Program-made: the position numbers and the translations under genes
Part shown: positions 1-21,214 of the stretch, one piece after another
How positions within the stretch are numbered: the first letter of the stretch is position 1
How the letters are laid out: each line of letters starts with the position of its first letter
The notes under the pieces: generated by a model
Seen by the model: the letters and a program-made list of their open reading frames with translations, nothing else
Told to the model about the DNA's origin: nothing
Databases searched by the model: none
Source of the DNA: Ostreococcus lucimarinus
Taxonomy: Eukaryota
Strand: one strand, 5' to 3'
Assembly: GCA_000092065.1 (NCBI GenBank)
Contig: CP000582.1
DNA: 64,000 nucleotides

Positions 1-1169
1 TGTAAGCCCAGCCATGAGAAAATTGCACCGTGGAATGGGAATCAGGGACTGTTTCAAACCAGTTTAGAAAAGGACATTAAAGTCCCACGAACTTACCGCT
101 ATGAGACCAACAAGATCGTTGTTCATGTAACCAGGATATCTGAGAGTTGTGGTACTCGCTGCCATGACCTTCGATACGAGAGAGTTTGTATGGGAGAAAT
201 CAGGCGAGGCAACATGGAGGTGGTCCATTGCGATTCGATTCAAAGCCGCGTTATCTAAAACAACTACACAATCCGCGTGGTTTGTTAGACGTTTCAGAGT
301 CAAGAGAGAGTTATACGGCTGTACAACGACATCTTTACTACGACGTGAGCAGCAACAAAATAATAAAGCCTTCCGTGCTTACCACTTGACTCGCTTTGAT
401 TTGGGAAAACACTGTACGTTTGCAGAAGTTTTTTCCCATACCGATCGCTCAAAGCCTAGTTATCATGTGAGAATGCATTCGCTACGCGATTCACGACAAC
501 CCACCTCCAATAGATATGATCCCATACCAGACCCAGTCCCGCCAGCTATCGAGTGGCAAATAACAAAACCCGCAAGACTATCGCTACCGTCGACCTCTCG
601 ATCGATCATTTCCATTAACTCCTCCTAATACACGTGAGTTTGCTTGCAGGATGGCAACATTTTCCAACTTACATGAACAGCCTCAGCTTGCGTGTACCCG
701 TTTGCCCAATTATTTCCCGCACCCCCCCCGTGTGCAGATGTAAAAAAGTTTTCAGTATTGAATAGAGAACGCTGTGTTGAAGTTTGAATAGAGTTGATGA
801 CACGCGGTTCAAGATCAAGTAACTATTCAAGTTTTAATGACGTCGGTATATCCCTCACATAGCATCCTTACCAGCGCTCTTGGTACATAATGTTCATCAT
901 CTGCTTGGTAGAAGAAAACATCCTTCCGATCGGAGAACATATTTACAGAGGCCCCATCGATGCGACACGTGCCATCCATTGATATCCCATGCTCAGTGCA
1001 TAACTTGCAAGAAATTAGACACCACTTACACCAAAACTGAGCAAACGAACCTGGTTCCAAAACTCTGTGCCAACTTGGTTGCCACACTGACCTATCTGTA
1101 TCGTCACGATCTCTCTAAATGTGGTTTAAAAAGCTTGTGCGAATACTTGAGGCAGACTCACCGCGGCAT
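1..1169 (-). CDS. TUBG: gamma-tubulin, multi-exon; 3′ end runs off the window start
   Basis: Minus-strand exons read [24 protein letters not shown] / [31 protein letters not shown] / ..[45 protein letters not shown] / SLIPIPR.. The motif [32 protein letters not shown] is specific to gamma-tubulin. ATG at 1169..1167, exon 1 1162..1169. First intron 1115..1161 (47 nt, GTGAGT..TAG). A further 47-nt intron has donor GTTCGT. The last visible exon continues below coordinate 1. Confidence 0.85.
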
Positions 1170-1526
1170 GATCTGCTGAAAGTAAAACTGTGCGGCACCG
1201 TGAGCGCCAAGCGCGAACGCGAGTGACCGTGCAGTCGAATTTTTAAACGGTTTTGTGTTTTTTTGACAGCTCTAACTACATTTTCCGCCATTGGTACAGT
1301 AATATCTACAATACGACCAGCAGAATTGTTGCGACCCGCGCAACTTGCGCGCGGACTTGCACAACAACGCAAGGACAGGAACTTTCGGAGGGCATATATG
1401 AGTTCGCCGTAAGCACTGGAAATACGCAAGTAGAAATCATCGTGAGCATCGTCTTCCAACTGTGAACTTCCATCCGTGATCAAACTTACGCTGTTTGAGT
1501 TTACTTCTCCTACCTCCAGTTAAAAA

Positions 1527-3276
1527 ATGACGCCGACCTTCGCATCTTTAGCTCTTCGTGGATGCTTTCTCTGGGCAAAGATGCAGGTCAACGATCGCGT
1601 AACATACTCCAGGCAGTGTTCAACAGTGCTGTGCACGAACCGTAAGGCTCAGCGCACGAATGTGTTGCCTGGTGGTTCCGGGAGACTTTCGCAGGTGCTG
1701 AGAGCCTCTCGCTTTGTTGAGTCGACGGCCGCTCATCGAAACTCTGGTTTCTCACAACATTCCGGATTCATCGACGATTTCAGAAAAATCCCCAACCTTT
1801 CGCGAAGTCTTTTTGGCTTCATGCGACCTCATACAATTTATGGAACACTGGTACTTTTGAGTTGTTTGGTCTTGTCAAACTTGATTGTTTCCGTAGATAA
1901 GCATAGTATCGATCAGTCTCATGGCCGCCTCAGTAGATTCATCGCCATACAACACTTTACTTTGGAAGCTCTGGCAGGTGCTTTTTACATCATTTTGCCT
2001 CCCAACACTGTATGTAAGTTTTCGTAGGTGATATTTTGTGCGTTGGCGATGAATGTCACTATTGTGGGGCTCAATCAAATATACGACAAGAAGATGGACA
2101 AGGTTCAAACGTGAAGTATTTTCATCGAAAAGACCTCACTATTATCATAGATCAATAAACCTTATTTGCCACTCGTGTCAGGCGGCTTTACAACAGACAC
2201 AGCACTAACAACCATCGCTGTATGCTGTTCGAGTTCTGTCATCTGCGGTAAGGTTTTGGATTTCCGAAATGAAGCTTGTAAATCTTCGTTTTAGGAACGT
2301 TGACACAATCTTTCCACCTTTTGACTACTCTTGTTTTGAGGTATTTGATCGATCCACCTCATGACACTGGCACATTTAACGCGTGAAATAGTTTGTTACT
2401 CGGAGTTATCTACTCTACAGACTTTAAGTTACTTCGCTGGAAGGTATACTCGTCGCTTGCAAAAATACGACAAAATCTGAGTTCGTTAGCGGATTCCTGC
2501 GCTTGCAATTGTGTGCATTCTCAGCGTGAGGGCTATCCTAGTGCAGTGGGGTTTCTTCGGGCACTTCATGTCGTGCGTGGAACAATTTTTGACGTCCTTT
2601 CCTGATAATCCCTGTTTAGGTCAAGTTATATTCCTTATTGGGCAATGCCAGAAAATTTGGCCTTTTCGATACTTTTTATGAGCGTTTACTCCGTAGTGAT
2701 TGCGTTGTTGAAGGTAATAGATCTACAACTATTCCTATCTTTCACTTACGTTAAATAGGATACCCCAGATTTGGTTGGTGATTCGCAATCTGGAATGCGA
2801 ACGCTGGCAGTGCGACTCGGCGTGAGTTTAATGTACAATTATCATCTCTTGTCTCAACGTTCAAAAGGTTAAACCAGTCTTGAGGCTGTGCTGTTTGCTC
2901 TTGTTTTTGGCTTATTCAAGGTATTGCACTTCAAATTGAACGAGTGTTATCAGCTTATTATCCCTTCAATGGACAGTGGGATTTTAGTCGGACTTAGCCG
3001 TTCAGATTCGTGTATTCAAATGATTGTGTTGGTGCGTCAATTAGTTTTCAAATGCATCCGTTCTTAAAGTGTTTGGCACCGAAGACCTTGGGGCATTCGC
3101 TTTCCCTTATTCTGATTTTCATCAAATATTCGAAAACGGAGCATGCGTCATCGAGTTCACTTTACTCATTTTACATGTTCATCTGGAAGGTAATTTTGAC
3201 ATGGTTCTTATGTATTGATGCTTCCCAATCCGTGTAGATGTTCTACTGTGAATACTTCATGCTACCCTTCCTTTGA
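1527..3276 (+). CDS. UbiA-family homogentisate prenyltransferase (HPT/VTE2- or HST-like, tocopherol/plastoquinone pathway) with S/T/R-rich N-terminal transit peptide; at least 8 exons
   Basis: ATG at 1527. Exon peptides match homogentisate phytyltransferase: FMRPHTIYGT.., VIFCALAMNVTIVGLNQIYDKKMDK / INKPYLPLVSGG.., LLRWK / RIPALAIVCILSVRAILVQ.., MSVYSVVIALLK / DTPDLVGDSQSGMRTLAVRLG, ..YMFIWK / MFYCEYFMLPFL*. Introns: 2103..2150 (donor GTTCAA), 2714..2758 and others of 45–60 nt. A problematic 18-nt GT..AG segment at 2010..2027 carries an in-frame TAG. Stop at 3274..3276. Confidence 0.7.
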
Positions 3277-3472
3277 CGTGACGCCACTGACTCGTGAAAG
3301 TTTGGCGGCTTCCGAAGGCAAGTTTAGGAGAGGTTATATTTATGCTCGATCGCTCAATTCACATAGAGGCAAAAGTAGTCCGAACAGAGATCAGGGACAA
3401 CGTGTTACATTTTGTAGACTAAACTATTGTCGATCCGTCCACAGTGTCAAAAGGTGCACGCGATGATTTCTC

Positions 3473-4267
3473 CTACTTTTCAGTGTTCAGACCGGCTATG
3501 CCTGCAGCGATACGCTCCTCTCGTCTCGCGATTTTACGAGTTCTAACAGACTTGTTTTTCGCTCTTCGTGCCTCAAACTGGTCGGCTAAGGACTTCTCTC
3601 TGGCCTTCTCTGCCTTGGCCTTGTGGATGGCTTCCATCAAGACCCGCTTGTTCTTGAACACATTCCCCTTACATTTGAGGTACATGGAGTGGTACATGTG
3701 CTTATCGATTTTCTTCGCATCTCTGTACTTTGACAATAGTCTGCGCAGCACTCGGTGGCGACGAAGCCAAAGTACTTTGGTGGGAAGTCTGGCCTCGCGA
3801 GTACCGCGTCTTTTACCGTAACCGGTGTGTCGGCCTAGTCGCTTGGCGGCCTGCTCTCTCTTTGTACGAGCGCGCGAGTGAATCTATAATGACAACATAT
3901 TTGTAGGTCAGTACAGGCGTTCTTAGCCAAAGGGACGCGGTCACGCAACGACTCGCACAACGTACCTTCGTAGGTTTTCGGATCACGAAACCATCTTTCA
4001 CGAGTTTACGGATGTTTTGTCGCGAGTTTGCAGCTGCGATCTCGTTGACCTAAGAAGCGCAAAATTAAATGGGTTAGAGTGTTTGCTCCCCAGGGCGTCG
4101 TAATGCGGGATGTATAGTACACGTGGACGTATACGTGATCGTGTACAGATCCTACAGATCGGGTTGGAGGCTGTTTCGCGCACCTCGTTAGGGTCCATCC
4201 AGATCTTGCGTGCACCGCAATTCAACACGGATGCGGCGAGGCGTTTTTGCAACTTTAATGAGACCAT
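3473..4267 (-). CDS. RPL19: 60S ribosomal protein eL19 (3 exons)
   Basis: Exon 1 reads [29 protein letters not shown] (canonical eL19 N-terminus). Exon 2 reads ..[11 protein letters not shown] (donor GTACGT). Exon 3 reads [88 protein letters not shown].. Confidence 0.9.
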
Positions 4268-4669
4268 GGTACAAGATTTTGCTTCGTAGCTTGATCGGCG
4301 AACGGCACGCTATGCCGAACTTTAGGGTTTGTCCGTGTCACAGCTGCGACGACGGTGCGACGGCTAGGCGCACTCCTCTGGACTACACTTTTTATGTCCG
4401 AAGTGTGGTATCATTTCTCGTGTCGATGAAAACATACTATATAGCTACTATAACCTATATAGCAACCAATGTGGTACCATACCGTAGTATGACATCATAT
4501 CATACAATATCAGTAAATCACCTAAAAATTACGGACGCACCGGTCGGTCCCCAAATGTCGCCGGGCTGTCGCAGACCCTGCTTGGGATGCAGAATAGCAT
4601 TCATTCGACGACAGTCGTCGGCGTTTGTTTCTTCTTCACGAATATTTCGTCTCTTTTCGCACACGCGGC

Positions 4670-6010
4670 ATGCGTGCTTTCGTGAGCGGCGAGAAGCTAA
4701 GGAAACGAAATGGGCACGACATGAACGGCGAATGTCCACGACAAATTACACCAGTTTCACCTCTTGATCATCGTCTTTACGCTACTCTTGCGCGTGGTCA
4801 GCTTCATTCTCTTTTACCGGTACAGAAGCAGACGCTATCGCGCGCTCTTGCGGGGAGCTTCGAGAGGGACTTGTGTGTCACAGCTCCTACCGGGAGCGGT
4901 AAAACTCTCTCCTATTTGCTACCTGTGTTACAGATACTTTCAAAGCGAGTATCGAAAGCCGAAACAGTGTGCCTGATTCTTGTACCGAGTGGCGATCTTT
5001 CCGCACAGGTATGCGTCGCCGCTAGTGAACTCTGCAAAGCATTGCACGTACAGATTTCTATTGTTGGGAAAAGTCGCAATACAACCAATTCAACTAAACT
5101 AGTGAACAAGCGATATCGACGGCTATTGGCTCAAAATAGACAGCGTATGTATCAGTGTTGTATCACGCGCCAGTTTGCGCGACATAATTCGCTGGATGTG
5201 CCTTCACAAATACTTGTAGCGTCTCCTGGAAGGTTTGCTGCACATCGGACGAGTATTCTCAAGAAATTGAAATTGTTAGTCATCGATGAGGCGGACAGAA
5301 TGCTTCAACAATCATATCAAAACTGGCTCGTTACGCTGGACTATGAAATGTGTGCGCGAACACGTCAGTGTCGGCGTCTCACTGTGGGTGAACGAAACTC
5401 TGAAAGACTGCAACTTATATTTTGTTCAGCAACATTGCAAAGTTCGTGTCTACAAAGGGTTGGAGCTTTCGCACTTGATCGAATCAATGCTTATGATAGT
5501 GTCTGTCCACTTTTGCCTATTACGCTGTCTGAGTATGCGATTGTTGCGGAACACACTGATAAGTTTGATGCTCTTGTCTCGCTACTTGAATTTTTCAAGG
5601 GTGAAAAAGTTATTGTCTTCTCTGCCTCGGTATATCGTGCTAGACATATACTACAGCGGTTGAATAAATTAGAAAATTTGCCCTGTTTCGAGTATAGCAG
5701 TGACGCAAACCTTCGAAGACGAGCATCTACGCTTCAAAACTTCCAGCGCTGCCAGGGAGGTGTCCTTGTTGCTTCAGATGCCGCTGCACGAGGTTTACAC
5801 ATCGATGCAGTATCGGCTGTGATATCTTTTGACGCTCCTGAGCATTTCGAGACGTATCTGCATCGAGCTGGAAGAACGGCGAGGGCAGGCAAAACGGGCA
5901 AATGTATCACGATTTGTTCGACAGCACGTGAAGCACAAACTTTCATAAAACGAGTTCAGCGCCATGTCCCAATACTCCTTTCAACAGAGCTTCAAGGCTC
6001 GACTATTTAG
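4670..6010 (+). CDS. DEAD-box ATP-dependent RNA helicase
   Basis: Single long ORF carrying the Q-motif region (PLDHRLYATLARGQLHSLLPVQKQTL) and motif I (APTGSGKTLSYLLPVL). DEAD box is LVIDEADRML, SAT motif is FCSATL, motif VI is HRAGRTARAGKTG. First in-frame ATG at 4670; a second ATG lies at ~4720. Confidence 0.85.
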   Translation: MRAFVSGEKLRKRNGHDMNGECPRQITPVSPLDHRLYATLARGQLHSLLPVQKQTLSRALAGSFERDLCVTAPTGSGKTLSYLLPVLQILSKRVSKAETVCLILVPSGDLSAQVCVAASELCKALHVQISIVGKSRNTTNSTKLVNKRYRRLLAQNRQRMYQCCITRQFARHNSLDVPSQILVASPGRFAAHRTSILKKLKLLVIDEADRMLQQSYQNWLVTLDYEMCARTRQCRRLTVGERNSERLQLIFCSATLQSSCLQRVGAFALDRINAYDSVCPLLPITLSEYAIVAEHTDKFDALVSLLEFFKGEKVIVFSASVYRARHILQRLNKLENLPCFEYSSDANLRRRASTLQNFQRCQGGVLVASDAAARGLHIDAVSAVISFDAPEHFETYLHRAGRTARAGKTGKCITICSTAREAQTFIKRVQRHVPILLSTELQGSTI

Positions 6011-6152
6011 ATTTCTTAGTCGTACTACCGTCAGTACAAATTGTGAAATAGTTGCGTCTTTTATTGTTTTACTCGAAATTCATATTTCACGAAAAGCTTC
6101 CTAGACTTGTACTCCGTGGGCACGCATTGCAGCACCTGGCTATTTATCGTGA

Positions 6153-6230
6153 CCATCGAGCCTCGTGCTCAGACTTCAACAAAGCCACATTTATCTTAAC
6201 CGTCGAGCCTCACGCTCAGATTCCATCAAC
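6153..6230. repeat. imperfect direct repeat of a ~30-bp unit (CCRTCGAGCCTCRYGCTCAGAYTYCAWCAAC) in the helicase–ERCC1 intergenic region
   Basis: Copy 1 at 6153..6181 and copy 2 at 6200..6230, visible directly. Could be a promoter or other regulatory motif upstream of ERCC1. Confidence 0.5.
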
Positions 6231-7175
6231 GTCAATATGTCGCCTAGATCGATAGACTTAGAAACAAGTTATGAAGCTTGTATTTTTGTTCACGTACCTT
6301 CTCGCACCGGGCCCTTCACATTTCGCATAATCTGTCTATTTTGGTCGTCTAAGAATTTAACACGAACCTGTGTCACCTAACACGGAAATCAGATATAACG
6401 CTCGACGTATAAACTACTGTATTACCTGGCCACGAGAGCCCGTACGACCGATGACCTTCATCACGATTGCTCTACCGAAGAAGTAAGTTTAGGGTTTCTA
6501 GGAATCAAACAACCAAGCGGGCGCGTTGTACAGACACGACGCAAGTAATGCGTTAGAAATAGAACTCACTTTTTTATGACGTCCTGTTTGTATGATCAAA
6601 GTTGCTGATAGTCAGTATCTACGTTTCGTCACGCCGGAGCACGCCAGGTCGCGCACGTTTCCGGGAGGAAGATTTCGGTGGGTTTCAGCGTGCGGTCGTC
6701 GCTTCACGCGCGTCACGTACCATTTTGCGTGACGGTTCTGACCACAGATGGCTGTTTAAAAACGATGAAAGCGAAGCGCAAGCTGTCTCGAGACAGCAGC
6801 TTCGGTATGACGCAGGCAAGGCTGCAAGTAGCACGATCCCGCTGACGGCTTGTAATTTCTTACCTACGTTCGCATTTTTTAACCAAATCGAACTCATATA
6901 CGCATTTATATTATATTATATGGTCTACTAGTACTGTACATCTAAAAAGACTTCACGGACAGATGCCGACGGGCACAGTGCTGCGCAAGCTAAAGCTAGC
7001 CAACAGTCCGCTACGTTTCCAAGCAAAGACTACGTAAAATGCCTCGCACAAACGAGATTGGGAGTTAGCTACAATAGCTACAATGTTTGGGCGTGCACGC
7101 TAACAAATTGCTTTGAGCCAACTGTTCTAAACTTGAAAGAGTAGAAAAAAAGAGTAGAGACACGAACGAGCGAGG

Positions 7176-7814
7176 ATGAAACGGCCGCCCCTCAGCACGC
7201 TCTTGGTGAATGTCCTACACAAGACACACCCGTTATTGGCTCTTCTGGAAGTCGGGTACAGACTCGAGAACATTGATTGCGACTTCATTTACGAACACAC
7301 CAGTATTGTATACTGCACGCTTCGCCTCCACACACTCAATGCGGACCTATCAACGCAACGCCTGAAGAAAGCTTCAAGCGTTCTGGCGAATGTGGTTGTT
7401 CTATGTCTCGTCGACTCAGAGGACAGCTTTCAAGCGTTGATCTCGTTAAATAGAGTTTGTGCAGCATCGAATTGTGTTCTTGTTTGTGTGTACACTTTAA
7501 GGGAGGCAATCAGCTACATTCACGCGTTGTGTGCTGCAACAGCCAGGAAGGATACTAGTACTACAATGATCAGTGATGTGTGCTCCATTCTCTCTTCTAT
7601 TCGCGGCATAAATAAACTTGATGTTCATGCTTTGTGCCATAATTACTGTTCATTTTCTGATTTGTGCAAATCGAATGCGCGGAGCTTATCTGATTGCCCT
7701 GGTGTCGGCGCAACGAAAGCACAAATTTTGAGACAAGCTCTCCAGAAGCCCATTATGATCGATCATGATCCCTCACTCAACTCAAGTAGAGAAAAGCCAC
7801 GACTATGTACCTGA
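7176..7814 (+). CDS. ERCC1: ERCC1-like nucleotide-excision-repair protein (central domain plus C-terminal HhH2)
   Basis: Real ATG at 7176. Peptide NVLHKTHPLLALLEVGYRLENIDCDFIY..ASSVLANVVVLCLVDSEDSFQALISLNRVCAASNCVLVCVYTLREAISYIH aligns with the human ERCC1 central domain ([21 protein letters not shown]...LLVQVDVKDPQQAL..ILAWSPEEAGRYLETYK). C-terminal SLSDCPGVGATKAQILRQAL is a helix-hairpin-helix. Confidence 0.8.
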   Translation: MKRPPLSTLLVNVLHKTHPLLALLEVGYRLENIDCDFIYEHTSIVYCTLRLHTLNADLSTQRLKKASSVLANVVVLCLVDSEDSFQALISLNRVCAASNCVLVCVYTLREAISYIHALCAATARKDTSTTMISDVCSILSSIRGINKLDVHALCHNYCSFSDLCKSNARSLSDCPGVGATKAQILRQALQKPIMIDHDPSLNSSREKPRLCT

Positions 7815-9663
7815 CTCCAGATGTGATTGGCACGCCACCGTGCGTCAGATAACTTCTGAAAGCGACGAAATCTCCACACTTTGGTCGAACAATGAACTCA
7901 TGCTCCGGGAAAATCGTACCGCCACCTTTGTATTGTATAGGATCATTTAGAGAAAGAGTTATGGAGAAGTGACCTTGATCGGTGTGTACTGGTAGCTGAC
8001 ACTGTCCATCACTGGCATCGTATTTTACTATGAATGCATCGTGAACCCTAAGATTCGTGTCACCATCGACTCTGAAACGTTCTTGAATGAAGGGACCTAT
8101 GATTTGCCCGAAGATCAAATTCCACTCTCGCAAGACAGAGGGAATTTCGTGTATAGGCAAATCAGTTGTGGCTACAGATTTGTGACGATCTGTGTCCCAG
8201 CCTCCTCTATTTGTTGCATGAGCTTCGGCGGTTTTAATCCAGCTAGAACAAGCTGATGGTGATATTGCACTATTTGTTGTCAAATAAATTTCATCAATTG
8301 AAATAGTCTGAAAAGACACATAGTATTCGGGACATTTTCTACATAAATACGCTGCGTATGAAACATCTTTGTTGAATTGTTTCGATAGCCATAGATGAGC
8401 TTTGTCAACCTTAAAAGCGAGTTGCCAGATACTGTGGGCAAGTTTCCATTTGCCTTGACTAAGGAGCGTCACACCATACGCATGAAGCACATCTGTGTCG
8501 TGTGGATTGTGAAGAAGTGTGCAGTGAAATAAGAGCTCTGCCTCTGAGTATCGCCCCTCTTCCTGCGCTTGAAGAGCCAATTGCTTCATTTGTTCGGGCG
8601 AAACTCTACCAAAATCTTCTCGTTCCCACGAACAACGCGAGCAAACGCAAACTTTACCAAGCTGCCTCAACAGTGAGGCATCTCTGGCACTTACACTAGA
8701 ATGAAGAGGTATAGTTGTCAAAGAGATCGGCTCCATCTGATCAATTTCTCTGAGCGCTATATATCCATATTTCACCTGTGAAAGGGTTGAATTAGCTTCA
8801 ACTTGCACACTTGGATTGCAGCTGTGTTGGAATTTGGTCAGAATTGGTGCCAACAAAAAACCGCAGTAATCTGGCAATTTATTCATAATTGCACAATGGT
8901 ATGAAACTTTCGGATGAATATCAAACTTTGAGCCGTAATGAGCTAATGCAGGATGAGTATCACCATTTTGGGAAGGAGATTGGCGTGTCGGTGGAATTGT
9001 TGTCTTCTCTGTACCAATAGCTACAGCAAACCGCTGAATGGAAGCCACTATATCTGCGTACATCTCAAAGTCTAAAAGCTCGGCAAATCGTGTTTTTGTC
9101 TCTAGATCAAATCTATTATTCAAATGTGCTTTCAATAAGTCCCATGCATCTGCTATTTGATGTTCTAAAATACACGCTCGTCGCACAAACTCATAGAAGT
9201 CCGTACACTCCCAGTTGGCGCGTGCAGCAAGTTCGGACCACTTATGACGCGGATCGAATTGCTCCGACCAACTCAATTGTATTTTTGATACGCTCGTTTC
9301 ACACTCTGACATTGCTGATAAAAGTTGAGCAAGCACCTTAGCAGCAAAAGTGAAACTTTCGCTCGACCTTCGGCAATACTCGTAGAATTCCAACATTGGT
9401 TCACTTCTATTTGAGCATAAAATTGAATGCCAGCCTAATTCCCGCATCGCATGCGGTGCACAATCTCGTCTACAGAAGATATCTCCACAGTCACACCTAA
9501 TGAAACTTGCCTTATCATCGTCGCAGTTACCGAAAAGACGCAAACAGTTTCCGCAAGTTTGCCGCGAACTGTTTTTTTGTAGAAGGAGAAAATTCGTAGA
9601 CGAGTCAACTTTGTGAAAGTCACCTTTGCTCATCTTCCGATGATGTCTGCTGTCCATGTTCAT
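7777..9663 (-). CDS. multidomain protein: MYND zinc finger, SET domain (SMYD-like), TPR-like region and a C-terminal prolyl-4-hydroxylase-type 2OG-Fe(II) oxygenase domain
   Basis: Uninterrupted 628-codon ORF with ATG at 9663. MYND: CGNCLRLFGNC..CDCGDIFCRRDCAPHAMRELGWHSILC. SET signatures: FQHSCNPSVQV (NHSCxPN) and ALREIDQMEPISLTT. P4Hc fold: HTDQGHFSITLSLNDPIQYKGGGTIFPE..VRPKCGDFVAFRSYLTHGGVPITSGVRYIVVAF, i.e. HxD..H..R..Y. The 3′ coding end overlaps the ERCC1 stop by ~38 nt. Confidence 0.65.
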   Translation of the reverse strand: MNMDSRHHRKMSKGDFHKVDSSTNFLLLQKNSSRQTCGNCLRLFGNCDDDKASFIRCDCGDIFCRRDCAPHAMRELGWHSILCSNRSEPMLEFYEYCRRSSESFTFAAKVLAQLLSAMSECETSVSKIQLSWSEQFDPRHKWSELAARANWECTDFYEFVRRACILEHQIADAWDLLKAHLNNRFDLETKTRFAELLDFEMYADIVASIQRFAVAIGTEKTTIPPTRQSPSQNGDTHPALAHYGSKFDIHPKVSYHCAIMNKLPDYCGFLLAPILTKFQHSCNPSVQVEANSTLSQVKYGYIALREIDQMEPISLTTIPLHSSVSARDASLLRQLGKVCVCSRCSWEREDFGRVSPEQMKQLALQAQEEGRYSEAELLFHCTLLHNPHDTDVLHAYGVTLLSQGKWKLAHSIWQLAFKVDKAHLWLSKQFNKDVSYAAYLCRKCPEYYVSFQTISIDEIYLTTNSAISPSACSSWIKTAEAHATNRGGWDTDRHKSVATTDLPIHEIPSVLREWNLIFGQIIGPFIQERFRVDGDTNLRVHDAFIVKYDASDGQCQLPVHTDQGHFSITLSLNDPIQYKGGGTIFPEHEFIVRPKCGDFVAFRSYLTHGGVPITSGVRYIVVAFLYLS

Positions 9664-9832
9664 ACTTCAAACGTTTCTTAGCTGCAAGACGTCACGTGGC
9701 GGCACCTTGCAGCCGCCGCCCCGCTCGGGTCGTCGCAAGTTCACTCGCGCGCATTTATTGTCATACTGTAACGGGTGTTCACTTTATTTAACGCGTTAAG
9801 TATCACTTGCCATGCGATGGTCTAAAAAAAAA

Positions 9833-9905
9833 TGGCGACACCGCGGATCGAACGCGGGACCTTTAGATCTTCAGTCTAACGCTCTCCCAACTGAGCTATG
9901 TCACC
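9833..9905 (-). tRNA. tRNA-Phe (anticodon GAA)
   Basis: Minus-strand sequence GGTGACATAGCTCAGTTGGGAGAGCGTTAGACTGAAGATCTAAAGGTCCCGCGTTCGATCCGCGGTGTCGCCA is near-identical to canonical eukaryotic tRNA-Phe. Cloverleaf folds with anticodon loop CTGAAGA. Followed by T9 (A9 on the plus strand at 9824..9832), a Pol III terminator. Confidence 0.9.
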
Positions 9906-10180
9906 GACTGAGCTCGAGGCATACTCGAGTAAGAGGTCTCCCGCTTTCCTCGCTTTCGCAAGGCGCGTTCCCGTACGACAACGGATTTTCGACTCAATAT
10001 ATTTCCTCTAACGAGTGGCATCATCGGCCGACGGCCGTTGGGAAGATGATGCCGTCAGTACTAAAGAATCTAGTGCTTTAGTGCTTATGTGGAAAACTGC
10101 TTACGATCGTCTGAAGAGACTGCCTCTTCCCGGTAGGGCTTTATTCTTTTTTTTATTCTGGTATTGACCGTCACACTGAT

Positions 10181-13100
10181 TCACGATGAAGTGAGTTCGA
10201 CTGTGTCACGCGAAAATCGCAATTCTTGAAAAACATCACTTGGGTTTTCGTTTCCTCCAACTCCTGCGATGACAAAAGTAAAAGTGAAACGCTTCCGAGC
10301 AGGTGCAAGAAATTCAGAGTGCACACATGGAAACCAACTGCAGTCTCCTCCTAAACCCATTTGGAATGTATCTAAATGTACGTGAATACTGTCACTTCGC
10401 TGAAGATCGTGCTGGTGGTTGGCTCGCGCCAGTTCAGCGTCAGAGAAATTTGACGCATTGAAATTGAAATTCTCCTTGCTCGTGAACAAGCACTTATTTC
10501 CGCTTGCGGAAGATTCTAAAGCCAGCCAGCGCACTTCTTGGCGAGCACCATTATCACTTGGTACTATATATGGAACATGAAGATCGTCAACAGTTGCGGA
10601 GTGGCGACCCAGAAACGCAGAGGACTTTCTATCTAAATAATTTTCATGTGGACCAAGTCCAAGCCACTCAACTTGTTGCATGGTTGCTCGACATTGCATC
10701 AGAACTCCAATTCGAGGAAGAGGTGGTAAATGAGGTGATAAATCGAATGTGCAAGTAACATTTAGATGACCAGACGCCAAGACCGTGTAATGAGAGCAAA
10801 GACGACATACAGTTTTCTTTTGAGCAGTTCGAAGCACAAGCTTACTAGCACAATGAAATCTTCCGAAGTTGTCTACGAAAGTTTCGACAGCTTCTTCGTG
10901 CTCATGCAAAGTATCCAGTCCTGCTTTGGCCCATCGCTCGGCAAAAGAAAAAATCCAACCACCACTGTCATTGTCTGTTGGAGCTCGCCATAAACTCGCT
11001 ATCGGGCCTGATTGAATCAACATTTCGCCGCGAAATTGAAACTTCAATAATCTACCGGAAGCTGCATTGAAAACATATGTGCTGTCTTGCGAAGTGACCC
11101 AAATCGCATCACTCAAATGCTCTATATGAATTGCAGCTTCACTGTTCAAGCTTCCCGGAACAGGGACTTTTTGTTGCGGCAACATAAGCTGACACTTTGC
11201 AATACTCACACCTTCAGGTATCCAAGACTGATGTTTGATGAACGAAGCCGATACGTCAATCCACCATTCTCCAAACACAAACTGCTTCCTCTGGACAAGC
11301 TGCGCGAGAGATGATAGTGATGGGAATAACTGGGACCATTCGTAAGAAGTTTCTGCTCCCGGTTGAATGTGAAGTTTGCTAAATTGGCCTTTCTTAAGTA
11401 TGAAGCCACTATCGAGAATCACGCACCAGTCGAACTTCATACACTCGAGATTTGTAAAGTGATATCGATTTTCAACGATAATCTTATCTCCTTGTGCGCG
11501 TATCATCGTAGGTTGTTGGAGATACTTCACTTCTTCCATGGCAGGATGAGGCGAACGGTCTGGGAAGACCAACCCGTTGATACAAAACTGCTTATCGTTT
11601 GGTGAATCTCCAAAATCTCCGCCATAGCCCCAATGAATTCGCCCATTTGTTGAACAGTTTAATCCTTGATCGATAAGGTCCCATATGAACCCTCCTTGCG
11701 CACTACGGTTGCTCCGAAACACTTCCCAATATTTGGCGAGACCACCATTGCTATTTCCCATGGCATGAGAATACTCACACAAAATGACTGGTCGATCATC
11801 CATCTGTGATGCAAGATCTTGGCAAATCTTAGGTGTTGCATACATGGGACAAATAATATCGGTGCACTTTGTCTTGAAGCCACCACCTTCATATTGAATT
11901 GGACGGGTTTTGTCATTTTGTTTTACCCATGAATACATAGCAAAGTGAGCGCCGCCACAACCTGACTCATTGCCAAGTGACCAAATAATGATAGAGCAAT
12001 GATTTTTGTCGCGTTGTACCATGCGTGATACTCTGGACATGTATGCATTTCTCCATACAGGATCATTTGCTAGATATGGCGTCGAATGTAAGCCAAACTC
12101 AAACCCATGTGTCTCAATATTGGCCTCATCAATAACGTACAATCCGTATTCATCACACAACTCATAAAACCTCGGATGATTCGGATAATGTGAAGTGCGC
12201 ACTGCGTTGAAATTGTTACGTTTCATCAGCAAAATGTCCTCTATCATGAGCTTCTCCGATACCGCCTTTCCCTCTACAGGGCAGTGTTCATGTCTATTTA
12301 CTCCTTGAAAAGTGATTCGTTTTTCGTTCACTAATAGTTGTTTGTTGAAAATCTGGACAGTTCGAAAGCCTACTCTGCACCCTTCGCAGTCTAAACACTC
12401 TCCAGATTCACTCTCCAAAATAATGGCAAGTAGATAAAGCGTTGGACGCTCAGACGACCATTCTGCCACGTTGCTTATGTTGAAGCATACATTTGCATAT
12501 TGCCTAACTTCCTCTATGTTTTTTTCTTGCGTTGTACCAAAATCAGGTGAATAGTGTTGGATAAGAAACTTGTCCGTAGTTCCAGTAGATATTTCACGTA
12601 AGGAAGAATCAAAAAGACGAACACGAAGACGTTTATTGTCATTGTTGAAGTACGCATTGGCGGTGTCACAAATTTCAATCCCAACTCGAAGCTCCCATGT
12701 GCCTGACTGCCAATCACAACACTCTGTCTGCACGGAGTAATCGCAGATATGTGACGCTCTTTTACGATACAAATAAACATCTCTGAATATTCCACTGAGC
12801 CACCATTGATCTTGATCCTCTAAGTAACTACCATCGCACCATCGATAAACGCGGACCACCACCAAGTTAGTCCCGCTTTGCAAAGAATCTGATACGTCGA
12901 ATTCGGCGGTCATTTTGCTATCTTGAGAGTAACCGACAAGTTGACCATTGATCCATATATGAAACGCTGCATCGACCCCCTCAAACACGATGAAAGTCCT
13001 TTCATATGATTCATTCCAGTCCATATCTAGCTGGAAGGTTCGCCTGTACAGGCCCGTCGGATTTGTCGCGTGCACGCAGTTTTCACACAGAACACCAGCA

Positions 13101-13432
13101 TCAATACCTAGCTTAATAGACGTACGCGCGACTGGTGGATGCAATGGAAAAGGATATTGAAAGTTTGTGTAAATAGGTCGATCCCATCCTTTGCATTGCC
13201 AATTTGCAGGGACTGGAATCTCTGCCCAGAACGTGTCTGAGAAGTTTGACAGTGTAAATTCATCAGATATGGCGCGTGGATTCTTCAGAAGCTTGAACTT
13301 CCACGTGCCATTCAGGTTCTGAACGTTGGCTAAATTAATTCTCTCATTCCAGAGGCCTCCACCTTTCCAGAAAGATATACATTCGTCCACAGTTCTGAAA
13401 GAATATAAGGTGCAGTGACTTGGCCTAGGCAT
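10181..13432 (-). CDS. glycoside hydrolase family 2 beta-galactosidase (LacZ-type), intronless
   Basis: ~1083-aa ORF. Diagnostic LacZ blocks present: NLNGTWKF..VPANWQ..WDRPIYTNFQYPFP, WSLGNESGCGGAHFAMYSWVKQNDKTRPIQYEGGG, ILCEYSHAMGNSNGG, FIWDLIDQG. First ATG at 13432 (MPRPSH..). Contains an insertion (RTSIKLGIDAGVLCENCVHA) relative to E. coli LacZ. Confidence 0.9.
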   Translation of the reverse strand: MPRPSHCTLYSFRTVDECISFWKGGGLWNERINLANVQNLNGTWKFKLLKNPRAISDEFTLSNFSDTFWAEIPVPANWQCKGWDRPIYTNFQYPFPLHPPVARTSIKLGIDAGVLCENCVHATNPTGLYRRTFQLDMDWNESYERTFIVFEGVDAAFHIWINGQLVGYSQDSKMTAEFDVSDSLQSGTNLVVVRVYRWCDGSYLEDQDQWWLSGIFRDVYLYRKRASHICDYSVQTECCDWQSGTWELRVGIEICDTANAYFNNDNKRLRVRLFDSSLREISTGTTDKFLIQHYSPDFGTTQEKNIEEVRQYANVCFNISNVAEWSSERPTLYLLAIILESESGECLDCEGCRVGFRTVQIFNKQLLVNEKRITFQGVNRHEHCPVEGKAVSEKLMIEDILLMKRNNFNAVRTSHYPNHPRFYELCDEYGLYVIDEANIETHGFEFGLHSTPYLANDPVWRNAYMSRVSRMVQRDKNHCSIIIWSLGNESGCGGAHFAMYSWVKQNDKTRPIQYEGGGFKTKCTDIICPMYATPKICQDLASQMDDRPVILCEYSHAMGNSNGGLAKYWEVFRSNRSAQGGFIWDLIDQGLNCSTNGRIHWGYGGDFGDSPNDKQFCINGLVFPDRSPHPAMEEVKYLQQPTMIRAQGDKIIVENRYHFTNLECMKFDWCVILDSGFILKKGQFSKLHIQPGAETSYEWSQLFPSLSSLAQLVQRKQFVFGEWWIDVSASFIKHQSWIPEGVSIAKCQLMLPQQKVPVPGSLNSEAAIHIEHLSDAIWVTSQDSTYVFNAASGRLLKFQFRGEMLIQSGPIASLWRAPTDNDSGGWIFSFAERWAKAGLDTLHEHEEAVETFVDNFGRFHCASKLVLRTAQKKTVCRLCSHYTVLASGHLNVTCTFDLSPHLPPLPRIGVLMQCRATMQQVEWLGLGPHENYLDRKSSAFLGRHSATVDDLHVPYIVPSDNGARQEVRWLALESSASGNKCLFTSKENFNFNASNFSDAELARANHQHDLQRSDSIHVHLDTFQMGLGGDCSWFPCVHSEFLAPARKRFTFTFVIAGVGGNENPSDVFQELRFSRDTVELTSS

Positions 13433-14134
13433 ATTTAGCACACATATAGAAACAGTCGACACGACCTACCTTCGATCACGACCAACAATAGATGCGTTCT
13501 CCCAGTCGGCGATTTCGGCCGACGATAAAGGCTCGTCTACCTATTTTTCGTGTGATTGCATTTCAATTAGTTGTATGCGACACGTACTGAAACCAGTTGC
13601 TCCTGAACGCAACTGTCGAAAAAGGTTGCGTAGGAACACTCCCCGATTCTGAGTATAATTGATAGCACGCGCGATGTGCGAAAAGTCCAGCTTTCGTAAA
13701 AGTTGATTATTCCCTGGAGACTAAAGCAACGAAACACGAAGCTTGCAAAGAGGTTCCAAAAGTACATTTTGGAATGCGCGTAGCGCTACGACAGCTGTTT
13801 GCTATGACCGCTGTTTCCGTCGAAGGATTACGTGTAGGTCGATTTCAAGACTTATGATATGTCGTACGCGTGACGCGTTCGCGAACACGCGTCGTCACTT
13901 GTGGGGGAGTGTTGCAGAGGGTACGACGCACTACCGAACTGGGCCTGACAACGCTTCTTTAAGTCTCCCAGGGTGCTGGAAAAATTTATATATCGCACCT
14001 TTAGAGAGTACCTACACACATGACGAGTCATGAACCGTGGATATATACGTATTTTACACCGTTTAGTGCCATCTACAATAGAGTATTCCTACCTTGGTGA
14101 AAAGTAGTAGTAGTATGTTGGTATGATACCTTTG

Positions 14135-14163
14135 CTGAAGGTCCTTCAGTGAAGGACCTTCAG
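14135..14163. repeat. perfect 29-nt palindrome (14-bp arms around a central G)
   Basis: CTGAAGGTCCTTCA-G-TGAAGGACCTTCAG; each arm is itself near-palindromic. Sits in a ~1.6-kb stretch (13.46–15.1 kb) with no recognisable gene. Confidence 0.6.
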
Positions 14164-15097
14164 ACAAAGTTAGTTGAATACGGAGAAGACCGGCTCGCGG
14201 CGGACAGAATACACGACGTGCAACGAGAGCTTCGATACTGTCTTGTGATAGCAACCCAACTGAAATCAAGCGGAAGTATCGTCTGATTACGCAGCGATGC
14301 CCCGAACCGAAACTGGCAACGTTCGTCTTCTTGCACGTGTCCGACGGGGCGAGTCAGGGTCACCAGCGTACTTTTGATATCAGGGTGCTCCACAGCACAT
14401 CATAAGCATCAAATTCAAAATTAGTTGCTACCCAATTGAATCCTCTGTGGTCATCTACGATGCCGACTGAAGACCGCGGTGGACTTTCTGGCCCAACAGT
14501 ACTCAAGTTTCTTCGCACGACCAGTCTAGTAGCTTTTAAGTTGTGGGCACCAGGTATAGAAAGTATTCCAGTCGAAACACTATCTTTCTCAGACTCAACA
14601 TAGGACCATTCAAGTTAGTGCTGTGCAAGGACCTACTGCGCTCAGTACAAATGGCGCTCGTGAAAACACGCTCAGTGCAAAAAAATATATTATGTGACAA
14701 CTCAAGTTGTACTACTCCAGTACCCCTCTTAAGCAGAGTGTTTCACGGTGTATCAACTAGCATAATATGGAGGCTTCAATTAAATGTTGAGGTATGACAT
14801 TGGTACAGTCAATTCCTCCTTCATTTGGATTCAGATTACTCTTTTAGCTCCTCGGTTTATGTGTTCGCTTTTTACTCCCTGGAACATTCAGAACCTTGCA
14901 GTTCTACAATCTCCTTTTCAAGTTGACGTGCGGGTACGTCAAAACAGCAGTCTGGTGCGTTATTAACACTCTTCTTTCGTCATGGTTTGAACGATTCTTA
15001 CATACATAGGGATATACGAACCGCGAAATGCATATCGGAGTTGAAGGTGCCTCGTTGCTTTTCCCATACTATATTCAATATTCATGACAAGATTTAG

Positions 15098-16648
15098 GAA
15101 TGCTGGGACTCTCGCCATAGCAAGGCCGCAAATTTGACAAAAAGGACATTGTTAAAATTATCAGGTTTCTACTTGAAGGTACTTTCACTTTGCAAGATGC
15201 ACTTGGTGGCTAAAAGTAGCCTAGGTAGCGCAAGTTTTTGCCACGAAAGCAGATCTACTACCAAAAGAATACGTTCACGCGCTCAGCTGCGTTCTTGATG
15301 ATTGCGCTCCGATGCCCGTCGGTGAGGTCAAGAGAGTGGTAGAGCGAGAATTAGGCGCTCCAATATCGAAGATTTTTCATCGATTTGACTTGCAACCGAT
15401 CGGCTCAGCCACTATTGCTCAAGTCCACCGCGCAGTCTTGCAAGACGGTCGACATGTCGCTGTAAAAGTACAAAATACTCGAAACAAAAAGCTGATGCGA
15501 TTTGATTTACGCAACATGCTTTTTGTTTCTCGGTTACTGGATCGACTTCGAGTATATCTTCCGTTCGATCATACAAGCATTTTAGTAGAATATTCCACAC
15601 AGGTACGCACAATACACCTGCAAGTATTAATGTTCAACTTAACGTCACCCAGGTACCTCTGGAATTTGATTTTAATAGGGAGAGACGCATGTTGAGCGTC
15701 CTAGGTCGTCGTATTAGCTCTAATCATAAAGTTCGTGTTCCAGCACCGATCGATGGACTCTGCACTGCTCAAGTGTTGACTATGACTTTGATTGAAGGCA
15801 AACCTTTAGCAACTTTTACGTCAGTCAGCTCAAAGAAAAATGTGGAGGGCAATCTTGATTATCTTAGAGACAATTTGAGGGAATTACTAGCAAGCTTTGG
15901 ATTTCAAATCTTGAACTTAGGTGTTTTTCACAGTGATCCCCATCCGGGCAATATTTTACTAAGAGATTTTCGAGACATTGCGCTGATAGATTTTGGTCAG
16001 GTGAAAATATTATCTGATGAAACACGAGTGCTGTTTGCGCATCTTGTCGTATCATTGTACGAAGAGTCGGATCAATTGTACGCAATATTAAAAACACTCA
16101 AAGTTGAGTTTACAATAAATGATCCAAAATTGATAAGGACCATAGCTTCAATTCTGTTTGATACACGCATGGATATACCCGAAGCACTCGTATCCCCACT
16201 AGATTCTGAATTTCCAGCGGAACTACGCAGTGTGAGAATAAATGTGATACCCACGGAGGTTTTCATGATTATTCGTATCATTGCTATATTTCGAGGCATC
16301 TTTTCAGCTTTGGATATCGATTTACATGCGAGGAAACTTTGGGTCAGCAGTGCACGACAAACAATTCTCGATTCCGAGCGTGTATATAACTTCAATATTC
16401 TAGCGACACCAAGAAATGAAGTGAACATCGTTGATCAGCTGAAGCATTTTAGTGCTTGGCTTGCCCTTCATGGCTTGCCTCACCAGAGGGAGTATATGAT
16501 GGCTTTTGCGAAGTTACATGTGTTTTGTATCAAAGATTTACGGAAACTTGCCGCAGAGAACGAGCGATCAGCACTTGATGCCGTATTCGCAAACTTCTCG
16601 GAACAGGATAGAAGCCGTTGTCTAAAACTTTGCTATGAGCATTCATGA
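15098..16648 (+). CDS. ABC1/ADCK (UbiB-family) atypical protein kinase; 5′ exons upstream of 15098 unresolved
   Basis: Exons read ..KAANLTKRTLLKLSGFYLK / VAQVFATKADLLPKEYVHALSCVLDDCAPMPVGEVKRVVERELGAPISKIFHRFDLQPIGSATIAQVHRAVLQDGRHVAVKVQ..YSTQ / VPLEFDFNRERRML.. The signature FHSDPHPGNILL is present. Introns at ~15179..15223 and 15603..15652 (GTACGC donor). Stop at 16646..16648. Confidence 0.8.
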
Positions 16649-17093
16649 AAGCGAATATCATAGTTCAACCTGTGTCTTCGTCGAGTACCAGGAGCACTTA
16701 TTCAACTTATTCAACCAAATTTTGGATTAACGTGAATCCCGACCGGGATACTTTAAAATAGTAATTACATTTTATTAGATCTTAAAAATCTCTCAATGCA
16801 GCAAATTTTCAGTTCAGGTGCCTGTGAATGTTTAATAAATAAAATAACACACGGGCGTGCCGTTCCTCAACACCCCCGCCAGTCGCCAGACACGCACATA
16901 TACCGAACTGATTCGAGCCGTCGAATGGTCACGTAAAGCACGCATATTGCAGAGTCCTACCGTTGTTCAACTTTTAACTAGAGTTCGCGATGGGTAAGTC
17001 CATCGCTCACGCCAGTCACTCCCACTTCAACTCATACATTTTTGTTACAATACAGGCATTAAGGAGGGTCTCTCCGAACTTTGGGATGACTTG

Positions 17094-18794: not shown

Positions 18795-18861
18795 AAGACG
18801 AGACATTTTGCAAGAATGCAGGAGCGAAGCGTGAAAAAGATCCAGGCAACGACCACACCTA

Positions 18862-20606
18862 CTAACCGATGTCCTTGAGAAGTTTTCCATAGTAAACAAA
18901 TTTCCACTGTGTCTGCTTGTAATGTAACCACCTATCTTCAAATAGGGAAAGATTTCTTTGAGACGTCTCTCCATTCATGGGAACTAGTGTTGCGAAAAAT
19001 AAAGCTGCCTTCGGGAATACTTAATAGGCGATTGCGTCTTTAATAGTTCGAGTGCAAGCAGCTTACCTCGAGCCATGTGAGTGCCTCGCACATTTGAGCC
19101 TCATAAAATAGTCCTGCAGAGGTGTTAATCTAATCCTAACTACAAGCAGAAATAGAACACCTTCAACGTTCATTTCTGAATTCTTTTCCGCCTGGTACTC
19201 TTGCAAAAATGATAGCAAACTTTCATCGTAGAAGGAGTTCGTAGTTCGAAACAATTTCATTGTATCGAATCCACGATAATTTGGGCCGGCTAAATCAATG
19301 TCGATCAACTTTAGTGAAACGAAGGTATGAGGTGTAAGTAAGTGACTTCAACGTGAAGTTTATGGTGTACCTTGAAGTTTCGGTCCTGTTGGTAGATTAC
19401 GTTCGATGGCTTCAGGTCACCGTGACAGAAACAGATAGGTAAGTGAACGCTCTGGATATTTTGTGAGATACTATTGAATTTTGGACACTCATATACACGC
19501 CTTGAAGAAAGATTCCACTTTGAACACTTCATCCTCTAATTCCTAAAGCAATGTCAACTTGTCAACTTGAGCGACCACCAACTGGTACTTTGCGCTTTGC
19601 GCCGCACCTTGACCCCAACACCAGCGATCATGCCCCCCTTTGAAAATCTTAGTCTCATTAACATCCGGGGATTTCGACACTACCTCAAGTGGTCGCAACT
19701 GCATCAGCATTTGATGAAACCATTTCCATATGAGTGCCCGCTCACGTCCTTCACAAGTCAGGGGAAGTAAAGGTTTCAAGATCTCAAATGATTCACCCTC
19801 TACGTGCACTGAGTGCAGCCTACTTATTCTACGATATTGTGACAAAAGATTTAACATTCTTGTTCAAAGATTCGAGAGTGTGCTTACAATTTAGCAGTTG
19901 ACTTGCAGAACGAAAGTTCCTTCATATCTTCTTCTCGGAGAACTCGGCCATCCAAGTACTCAGTAACGATGATATCATCGGCGTGTGAAATATAATGCGG
20001 ACAAATGCCACGTTCTGCCAAAGTTTTATGCATCTCGATGCAACTGCGCGCTCTTGAGACAGTTGAAATGTACTGTGTACTTCACGCCTACCTCAGTAAG
20101 TCACAGCGCAGTTTTGACAACTTGCTGTACTTTTTTACTACAAAGGTTTCGCCTCCACATGAGACCTTGTGCAGATGTGAATTTTAGTTTTTAAATAATG
20201 TAGCGCCGTTTCGTATCGGATACCTTGAAAACTTGGTTGCAGAAGCCTTCTGTGAACTGTGCGCACTCGAGTCTAACAGAAAAAGTTTAGGTATTGAGAA
20301 TATCCAAGATCGGCGGCGGATATGAGTAACTTACTTCACCGAATGCTTGTAATTTAAAATACTTTTGATGGCGTCAACATCTTCCACACTTAGTGATGTT
20401 GCTACTTTTTTCGAGAAAGCAGTTGCGCTTGGACTCCGTCGAGTTTGTCGAACTTTGCAATAACTTGGTCGTTCCGGTCGGGAAAGGACGAAAGCATGCA
20501 TCACCCTCTCATGCAGGGGTATCAAGCATATCTTAACTTGCTCTAGTAGAGAGAAGCAAGTGCGAAACGCGTCGGCCTGTCCTGGGCATAGCCGGTCTCC
20601 CGGCAA
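18862..20606 (-). CDS. choline/ethanolamine kinase (about 6 exons)
   Basis: Exons read ..NYKHSVK / LECAQFTEGFCNQVFK / VSCGGETFVVKKYSKLSKLRCDLL / ..CIEMHKTLAERGICPHYISHADDIIVTEYLDGRVLREEDMKELSFC.. / ..ICFCHGDLKPSNVIY.. (Brenner motif) / IDIDLAGPNYRGFDTMKLF (ChoK motif IDxE..NYRGFDI.NHF) / ..LFEDRWLHYKQ*. Introns are ~46–63 nt. The stop at 18862..18864 lies 68 bp from the convergent P2X stop. Confidence 0.75.
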
Positions 20607-21154: not shown

Positions 21155-21165
21155 GAGTGAGAGAG

Positions 21166-21212: not shown

Positions 21213-21214
<2 letters not shown>

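What the first reader, a model, noticed from the sequence alone, without database searches (positions are those of the whole stretch)
7777..9663. Single ORF fusing MYND zinc finger, SET domain, TPR-like region and a prolyl-4-hydroxylase-type 2OG oxygenase domain
The 628-codon minus-strand ORF has no stop between a SMYD-like module and a C-terminal P4Hc fold. The SMYD-like part carries CGNC..CDCGDIFCRRDC..H..H..C (MYND), then NHSCNP and a post-SET-like segment. The P4Hc part reads HTDQGH..LNDPIQYKGGGTIFPE..FRSYLTHGGVPITSGVRYIVVAF. A lysine methyltransferase scaffold coupled to a hydroxylase domain is not a combination I recognise. It could couple methyl-lysine recognition with hydroxylation, or be a gene-fusion artefact of compaction.
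Basis: partly seen in the sequence, partly recalled or inferred. Interest (0 to 1): 0.65.

Follow-up and report, generated by a model that had tools for sequence, protein, structure and literature searches.

The report
SMYD-like scaffold fused to lysyl hydroxylase
This Ostreococcus lucimarinus gene really encodes one protein that joins a SMYD-type (SET plus zinc-finger plus TPR) module, which has lost its methyltransferase catalytic residues, to an intact collagen-lysyl-hydroxylase-type oxygenase domain; the same fusion occurs in many marine algae, but its function has never been studied.

Summary
The ORF is real: 7777..9663 on the minus strand, 628 codons. It is 100% identical to GenBank XP_001416384.1, "Protein Lysyl hydroxylase fusion protein, putative" of Ostreococcus lucimarinus, whose model starts at Met11.

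Three details need correcting:
- The SET motif reads QHSC, not NHSC.
- Pfam zf-MYND does not hit, although eight zinc ligands are invariant.
- The oxygenase is PLOD-type rather than P4H-type.

It is not a compaction artefact. About 65 of the top 150 representative clusters carry both modules, including members from brown and chrysophyte algae. A syntenic orthologue at 43% identity keeps the fusion.

In 56 aligned members the Fe/2OG residues (Y, HxD, H, R) are invariant or nearly so. The SET catalytic Tyr survives in only 12 and the NHSC Asn in only 5. The window protein also lacks the SAM-clamping N-terminal strands.

Best reading: an intracellular PLOD-type protein hydroxylase that uses a dead SMYD scaffold and TPR for substrate docking. 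The gene is already annotated but uncharacterised. Interest is moderate.

The parts
7777..9663 (-). Whole ORF, 628 codons plus stop at 7777..7779. The GenBank model XP_001416384.1 starts at Met11 (9633). The upstream Met1 (9663) may be the real start, because the 89% relative has Ile at position 11.
9556..9633 (-). N-SET remnant (aa 11-36): two beta-strands equivalent to SMYD3 residues ~24-40. The preceding beta1-beta2 loop (SMYD3 R14/N16, the GxG SAM clamp) is absent. An in-frame stop lies 2 codons upstream of Met1, and a tRNA gene lies 170 nt upstream.
9415..9555 (-). MYND-like zinc finger (aa 37-83) inserted in the split SET. Its ligands C37, C40, C57, C59, C64, C68, H79 and C83 are invariant in the family. 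Pfam zf-MYND is not detected.
9028..9402 (-). Helical insert domain (aa 88-212), positionally equivalent to SMYD I-SET.
8881..9006 (-). Disordered, fast-evolving insertion (aa 220-261). pLDDT is below 50. Against the 89% relative it shows 9.5 nonsynonymous versus 0.5 synonymous changes, and its indels are in multiples of 3.
8698..8880 (-). C-SET core (aa 262-322). It carries Q279-H280-S281-C282-x-P284 (8818..8829; H, C and P invariant in 56/56). Thr317 (8713..8715) occupies the position of the catalytic Tyr, SMYD3 Y239.
8614..8697 (-). Post-SET segment (aa 323-350) with the invariant zinc cluster C339-x-C341-x2-C344 (8632..8649). Leu335, Lys337 and Val340 replace SMYD3 Y257, F259 and D262.
8359..8598 (-). 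TPR region (aa 356-435): five helices, about 2.5 canonical TPRs, at the position of the SMYD C-terminal domain.
7780..8313 (-). PLOD-type 2OG/Fe(II) oxygenase (DSBH) domain (aa 451-628). Its key residues are Tyr548, His560 (7984..7986), Asp562 (7978..7980), His608 (7840..7842) and Arg618 (7810..7812). These equal L230 Y814, H825, D827, H877 and R887.

Best explanation
One gene encodes one cytosolic or nuclear protein. It is a PLOD-type (collagen-lysyl-hydroxylase-like) Fe(II)/2-oxoglutarate protein hydroxylase.

Its N-terminal 440 residues are a SMYD-derived module: split SET, a MYND-like zinc finger, a post-SET zinc cluster and a TPR C-terminal domain. In Ostreococcus this module has lost methyltransferase catalysis. 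It most likely serves as a non-catalytic substrate-docking or presenting scaffold.

Shown:
- The architecture.
- Its conservation across relatives.
- The intact Fe/2OG site.
- The degenerate SET active site with retained structural zinc sites.

Inferred:
- The oxygenase is active.
- It acts on a protein side chain, lysine being the best guess from its PLOD affinity.
- The SMYD cleft, MYND-like finger and TPR select the substrate. This would be analogous to the TPR peptide-binding domains of collagen P4H and AspH.
For: A single conserved ORF:
- The ORF is uninterrupted and identical to the GenBank model.
- All six full-length relatives recovered at 43-89% identity keep both halves.
- The Tara contig L001 has the same neighbours (beta-galactosidase, Rad10, DEAD helicase). 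Their divergence is comparable, 44-59%.
- About 65 of the 150 best 50%-identity representatives found with the N-terminal profile also carry the C-terminal domain.
- Named members come from Ostreococcus RCC789, with complete MMETSP transcripts, and from Cladosiphon and Mallomonas.

Fold:
- The AF2 model has pLDDT 88.4 and pTM 0.83.
- Foldseek matches SMYD2/3/1 and L230/LH3.

Active oxygenase:
- Y538, H550, H598 and R608 (618-aa numbering) are invariant in 56/56 members, and D552 in 55/56.
- They align with the L230 residues shown by mutagenesis to be needed for activity.

Dead SET:
- The catalytic Tyr is kept in 12/56 members, the NHSC Asn in 5/56, and both in 5/56.
- The window protein has Gln, Thr, Leu, Lys and Val at SMYD3 N205, Y239, Y257, F259 and D262.
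- SMYD3 Y239F/A/K/Q abolish activity and F259A almost completely abolishes it.
- The protein and its Bathycoccaceae-like orthologues start after the R14/N16 SAM loop.
- The structural HSCxP and CxCxxC zinc ligands are 56/56 invariant.
Against: - There is no biochemical or transcript evidence for this exact gene.
- The SMYD3 SAM ligands Y124 and N132 could not be mapped.
- A minority of relatives (5/56) keep both Asn and Tyr, so some family members may be true methyltransferases.
- dN/dS against the 89% relative is only moderately below 1 (0.50 overall, from 34.5 synonymous and 64.5 nonsynonymous changes).
Confidence: 0.6

Rival explanations
1. It is a bifunctional enzyme. The SET domain still methylates lysine and the C-terminal domain hydroxylates the same or a neighbouring residue.
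For: - The SMYD fold and the post-SET zinc cluster are fully conserved.
- 5/56 relatives keep NHSC plus the catalytic Tyr, and 24/56 keep an aromatic (F/Y) at the F259 position.
Against: - In the window protein the SAM-clamp strands are missing.
- N205, Y239, Y257, F259 and D262 are all replaced.
- Single substitutions of Y239 abolish SMYD3 activity and F259A almost completely abolishes it.
Confidence: 0.1
2. The oxygenase does not act on protein lysine. It acts on another residue (Pro, Asp/Asn) or on a non-protein substrate. The SMYD/TPR part only provides localisation or partner binding, for example to a chaperone or to chromatin.
- NCBIfam gives weak YbiX-type hits.
- Complete stand-alone ORFs of the domain exist in transcriptomes.
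Against: - The best sequence and structure matches are consistently the lysyl hydroxylases.
- The 'VATTDLPIHE' segment aligns with the corresponding 'YPTQDTQLYE' / 'VPTVDIHMKQ' segments of L230 and LH3.
- The strict co-inheritance of the SET cleft with the oxygenase argues for a shared substrate.
Confidence: 0.22
3. It is an annotation or assembly artefact. Two neighbouring genes have been merged by genome compaction, or an unspliced intron joins them.
For: - Ostreococcus genes are tightly packed. The neighbouring Rad10 gene even overlaps the 3' end by 38 bp.
- A 42-residue low-confidence insert exists.
Against: - The same continuous frame appears in seven close clusters and about 65 distant ones.
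- It appears in independent assemblies and in complete transcripts of a homologue.
- AF2 gives a single confident multi-domain model (pTM 0.83).
- There is no stop or frameshift anywhere in the ORF.
Confidence: 0.02

Closest known systems
SMYD lysine methyltransferases (SMYD1/2/3)
   Same: - The module order is the same: N-SET strands, a Cys/His zinc finger inserted in the SET, a helical I-SET, a C-SET with HSCxPN, a post-SET CxCxxC zinc cluster, then a TPR-like C-terminal domain.
- SMYDs are the only SET family hit by the profile (E=2.7e-12).
- Foldseek aligns nearly the whole SMYD chain.
   Different: - The beta1-beta2 SAM clamp is missing.
- The equivalents of N205, Y239, Y257, F259 and D262 are replaced.
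- The finger is not recognised by Pfam zf-MYND.
- The TPR is canonical enough to hit TPR models.
- There is a 42-aa disordered insert.
- A C-terminal oxygenase domain has been added.
Collagen lysyl hydroxylases (PLOD1-3/LH3; mimivirus L230 LH domain)
- The Tyr, HxD, His and Arg Fe/2OG residues are identical in register.
   Different: - There is no signal peptide and no glycosyltransferase domain.
- The protein is rich in cytosolic-type zinc fingers, so it is presumably intracellular.
- No collagen-like substrate was looked for or identified here.
- The dimer interface and the second Fe site of LHs were not assessed.
TPR-plus-oxygenase hydroxylases (AspH; collagen P4H alpha subunit with its peptide-substrate-binding TPR domain)
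   Same: - A TPR module lies immediately N-terminal to a 2OG oxygenase domain.
- AspH TPR-oxygenase structures appear among the Foldseek hits.
   Different: The TPR here is the tail of a SMYD-type module, and the catalytic domain is closer to LH than to AspH or P4H.
SET-JmjC fusions (for example JMJD2/KDM4-family proteins fused to SET, listed in PMC2938197)
   Same: A SET domain and an Fe/2OG oxygenase sit in one polypeptide.
   Different: The oxygenase there is JmjC, not PLOD/P4Hc-type. Those SET domains are chromatin-type and presumed active.

Membership tests
SMYD (split SET + MYND) methyltransferases | SET fold split by a zinc finger, with significant similarity specifically to SMYDs | tested here: met
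   - The family profile gives SMYD3 at E=2.7e-12 and SMYD1/2 at about 1e-10. No other SET family appears at E<=0.01.
- Foldseek against SMYD2 gives E=4e-7 over about 440 columns.
SMYD (split SET + MYND) methyltransferases | Recognisable MYND zinc finger (Pfam zf-MYND, C4-C2HC) | tested here: inconclusive
   - There is no zf-MYND hit on the 10 family fingers tested at E<=10, and none at E<=0.001 on the 56 aligned members.
- However, eight ligands are invariant, in the pattern C-x2-C...C-x-C-x4-C-x3-C-x10-H-x3-C, with the MYND-like 'FCSxxC...WHxxxC' signature.
SMYD (split SET + MYND) methyltransferases | Catalytic and SAM-binding residues (NHSC Asn, invariant Tyr = SMYD3 Y239, F259, beta1-beta2 loop R14/N16) | tested here: not met
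   - The window protein has Q279, T317 and K337, and no beta1-beta2 loop.
- The function of these residues is described in PMC3105404.
SMYD (split SET + MYND) methyltransferases | Post-SET zinc cluster (Cys of NHSC plus CxCxxC) and a TPR-like C-terminal domain | tested here: met
   - C282, C339, C341 and C344 are invariant in 56/56 members.
- Five TPR helices follow.
PLOD-type lysyl hydroxylase (LH) domain | DSBH fold with the Fe triad HxD...H plus Tyr and Arg for the 2OG C5 carboxylate | tested here: met
   - Y548, H560, D562, H608 and R618 align to L230 Y814, H825, D827, H877 and R887.
- They are invariant in the family.
PLOD-type lysyl hydroxylase (LH) domain | Closer to LH than to other P4Hc-superfamily enzymes | tested here: met
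PLOD-type lysyl hydroxylase (LH) domain | Hydroxylates lysine in a defined substrate; dimerises through the C-terminal interface | not testable with these tools
   This needs enzymology and structural work.
Prolyl 4-hydroxylase (P4Hc / 2OG-FeII_Oxy_3 superfamily) | Pfam PF13640 / SMART P4Hc-type domain | tested here: inconclusive
   - PF13640 is not reported for the window protein at E<=1.
- It is precomputed on orthologues P0005-7 and found in 10/56 relatives.
- Superfamily membership is clear from the structure.

The most novel reading that the evidence does not exclude
The catalytically dead SET pocket has been repurposed as a lysine or methyl-lysine reader. It feeds the side chain to the PLOD-type oxygenase. 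That would make this a new, non-JmjC class of intracellular lysine oxidising enzyme, either a hydroxylase of (methyl)lysine or even a demethylase. It would be widespread in marine green and stramenopile algae.
Probability: 0.08. Interest if true: 0.85.

Novelty: new variant of a known kind. Interest (0 to 1): 0.5.

Why it matters
- Known intracellular protein lysyl hydroxylases are JmjC enzymes, and PLOD-type enzymes are known from collagen processing (my own background knowledge). A conserved PLOD-type domain welded to a SMYD scaffold would point to an uncharted protein-hydroxylation pathway. It occurs in algae such as Ostreococcus, which to my knowledge have no collagen; I did not check this.
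- It would also be a clear natural example of a SET-domain pseudoenzyme recycled as a targeting module.
- The family is easy to test. The protein is small and soluble-looking, and it comes from the tractable model genus Ostreococcus.
- The gene and its 'fusion' nature have been in GenBank since the genome release, so the observation itself is not new.

Tried and rejected
- AF2 with only the 7 close homologues gave a useless model (pLDDT 39.5). It was replaced by the 56-sequence run.
- The third homologous-protein search, with the 56-sequence alignment, returned only the already known close relatives. It gave no extra taxon names.
- The afdb50 fold library was unavailable, so named UniProt homologues could not be listed.
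- Most 'stand-alone' hydroxylase-domain hits turned out to be fragments on short contigs. Only a few complete transcript ORFs support a free-standing form, so I do not claim a clear ancestral stand-alone state.
- Literature searches for this fusion found no paper describing it. PMC2938197 and PMC5725981 do not mention it.
- Domain-wise dN/dS against the 89% relative rests on too few substitutions to rank the domains.
- The viral fold search showed only oxygenase-domain matches and no viral fusion.

Full report
**Observation**

The window holds an uninterrupted 628-codon ORF at 7777..9663 on the minus strand. Residues 11-628 are 100% identical to XP_001416384.1, [quoted passage not shown]. The O. 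tauri counterpart is annotated only as a TPR protein.

An in-frame stop lies two codons upstream of Met1. A tRNA-Phe gene sits 170 nt upstream on the same strand. There is therefore no room for a missing 5' exon. The 89%-identical relative has Ile at position 11, so Met1 rather than the annotated Met11 may be the start.

**Domain assignments**

Taken alone, the protein gives only marginal Pfam hits: SET at E=0.049, weak TPR, no zf-MYND and no 2OG family. Its C-terminal 130 residues, however, match the mimivirus L230 lysyl hydroxylase (E=1.6e-11) and human LH3 (1.5e-7).

A profile search of 1.84 billion representatives with the N-terminal 445 residues found many distant relatives. A 15-sequence profile of the SET/zinc-finger part then hit SMYD3, SMYD1 and SMYD2 at E=2.7e-12 to 1e-10, and no other SET family at E<=0.01.

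With a 56-sequence family alignment, AlphaFold2 gave a confident model (pLDDT 88.4, pTM 0.83). Only residues 220-261 (ORF numbering) are disordered. The fold searches on this model gave:
- Foldseek: L230/LH3 (E about 1e-9, TM 0.73 to L230), and SMYD2/3/1 over about 430-500 alignment columns (E=4e-7 to 2e-5).
- The viral library matched only the oxygenase domain. The best hit was a Megavirus procollagen-lysine dioxygenase.

The zinc finger is not recognised by Pfam zf-MYND. It does sit where the SMYD MYND sits. Its eight ligands are invariant in 15 diverse members, and it keeps the MYND-like 'FCSxxC...WHxxxC' signature.

The architecture is therefore SMYD-like, followed by a PLOD-type oxygenase. 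The SMYD-like part runs: N-SET remnant, MYND-like finger, I-SET, C-SET, post-SET, TPR C-terminal domain.

**Not an artefact**

- All six full-length relatives recovered at 43-89% identity keep the continuous frame.
- A Tara contig encoding the 43%-identical orthologue has the same neighbours: GH2 beta-galactosidase, Rad10/ERCC1 overlapping tail-to-tail, and a DEAD helicase. Their divergence is similar, at 44-59%.
- Local hmmsearch shows that about 65 of the 150 best representatives carry both the SMYD-like C-SET/post-SET/TPR part and the oxygenase domain.
- Named members come from three sources. One is Ostreococcus sp. RCC789, which includes complete MMETSP transcripts. The others are the brown alga Cladosiphon and the chrysophyte Mallomonas.
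- In the 56 aligned relatives, Pfam SET is found in 16, 2OG-FeII_Oxy_3 in 10 and TPR_2 in 19.

**Which half is catalytic?**

The two halves differ sharply in how well their catalytic residues are kept.

Oxygenase half. Across the 56 aligned members the following are invariant, with Asp at 55/56: Tyr548, His560, Asp562, His608 and Arg618. They align with L230 Y814, H825, D827, H877 and R887, which are the Fe and 2OG ligands required for activity.

SET half. The structural zinc ligands (H280, C282, P284, C339, C341, C344) are 56/56 invariant, but the catalytic residues are not:
- The NHSC Asn is kept in 5/56 members.
- The universally conserved catalytic Tyr (SMYD3 Y239) is kept in 12/56.
- Both together are kept in 5/56.

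The window protein has Gln279, Thr317, Leu335, Lys337 and Val340 at SMYD3 N205, Y239, Y257, F259 and D262. In SMYD3, Y239F/A/K/Q abolish activity and F259A almost completely abolishes it. The R14/N16 loop holds the SAM homocysteine moiety. That loop is absent, because the protein, like its close orthologues, begins at the equivalent of SMYD3 residue ~24.

The SET module here is best read as a pseudoenzyme that keeps its fold.

**Mechanism (inferred)**

This is an intracellular protein hydroxylase. It has no evident signal peptide and many zinc-finger cysteines. Its catalytic domain is PLOD-like. Its specificity is supplied by the SMYD-derived cleft, the MYND-like finger and the TPR. This parallels the TPR peptide-binding domains of collagen P4H and AspH, both of which appear among the fold hits.

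Lysine is the most likely target because of the LH affinity. P4H-type folds score almost as well, so this is not established.

**Rivals**

- A truly bifunctional methyltransferase-hydroxylase. This is unlikely for this protein but possible for the 5/56 relatives with intact motifs.
- A non-lysine or non-protein substrate.
- An annotation artefact, which is essentially excluded.

**Selection**

Against the 89% relative, dN/dS is 0.50 overall. It is 0.25-0.8 in the folded modules and above 1 in the disordered insert. The counts are small. The deep conservation is the stronger argument.

**Novelty**

The fusion is already flagged in GenBank's product name. I found no paper that describes or tests it. 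It combines known families in an uncharacterised, widely conserved architecture with a degenerate SET. That makes it a new variant of known kinds, of moderate interest.

Noticed in passing
window 7176..7814 (+): A Rad10/ERCC1-like gene converges on the fusion gene and overlaps its last 38 bp (7777..7814). The same tail-to-tail overlap is kept in related contigs: 38 bp in L005 and 12 bp in L001.
   Followed up: partly
window 9833..9905 (-): tRNA-Phe(GAA) lies 170 nt upstream of the ORF on the same strand and is followed by a T-run. This leaves a very short promoter region for the fusion gene.
   Followed up: partly
window 1..64000; L001; L004: The whole window is about 46% G+C. The block of beta-galactosidase, tRNA, fusion gene, Rad10 and DEAD helicase is syntenic in Tara contig L001, which is also 46% G+C. 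The O. tauri orthologue, on chromosome 2 (CAID01000002.2, 110-128 kb), has different neighbours. From memory, not tested here: this looks like the low-GC 'outlier' part of Ostreococcus chromosome 2.
   Followed up: partly
window 8881..9006 (-), aa 220-261: A disordered insert lies inside the SET-like domain. pLDDT is below 50. Against the 89% relative it has 9.5 nonsynonymous versus 0.5 synonymous changes, and its indels are in multiples of three. It is variable in length in all orthologues.
   Followed up: partly
window 9633..9663 (-): The start codon is ambiguous. GenBank uses Met11, but the closest relative (P0002/P0022) has Ile there and must start at the upstream Met.
   Followed up: yes
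window 10181..13462 (-): A 1093-aa GH2 LacZ-type beta-galactosidase lies next door. It is 59% identical in the syntenic Tara contig. Its origin was not examined.
   Followed up: no
P0083 cluster (Ostreococcus sp. RCC789, MMETSP0938): An Ostreococcus homologue is only 32% identical to the window protein, while other Bathycoccaceae-like orthologues are 43-52% identical. I could not decide whether this is a very divergent orthologue or a second paralogue.
   Followed up: no
window 34751..34994: tRNA-Leu(CAG) on the minus strand and tRNA-Arg(CCT) on the plus strand are divergently arranged, 88 nt apart.
   Followed up: no
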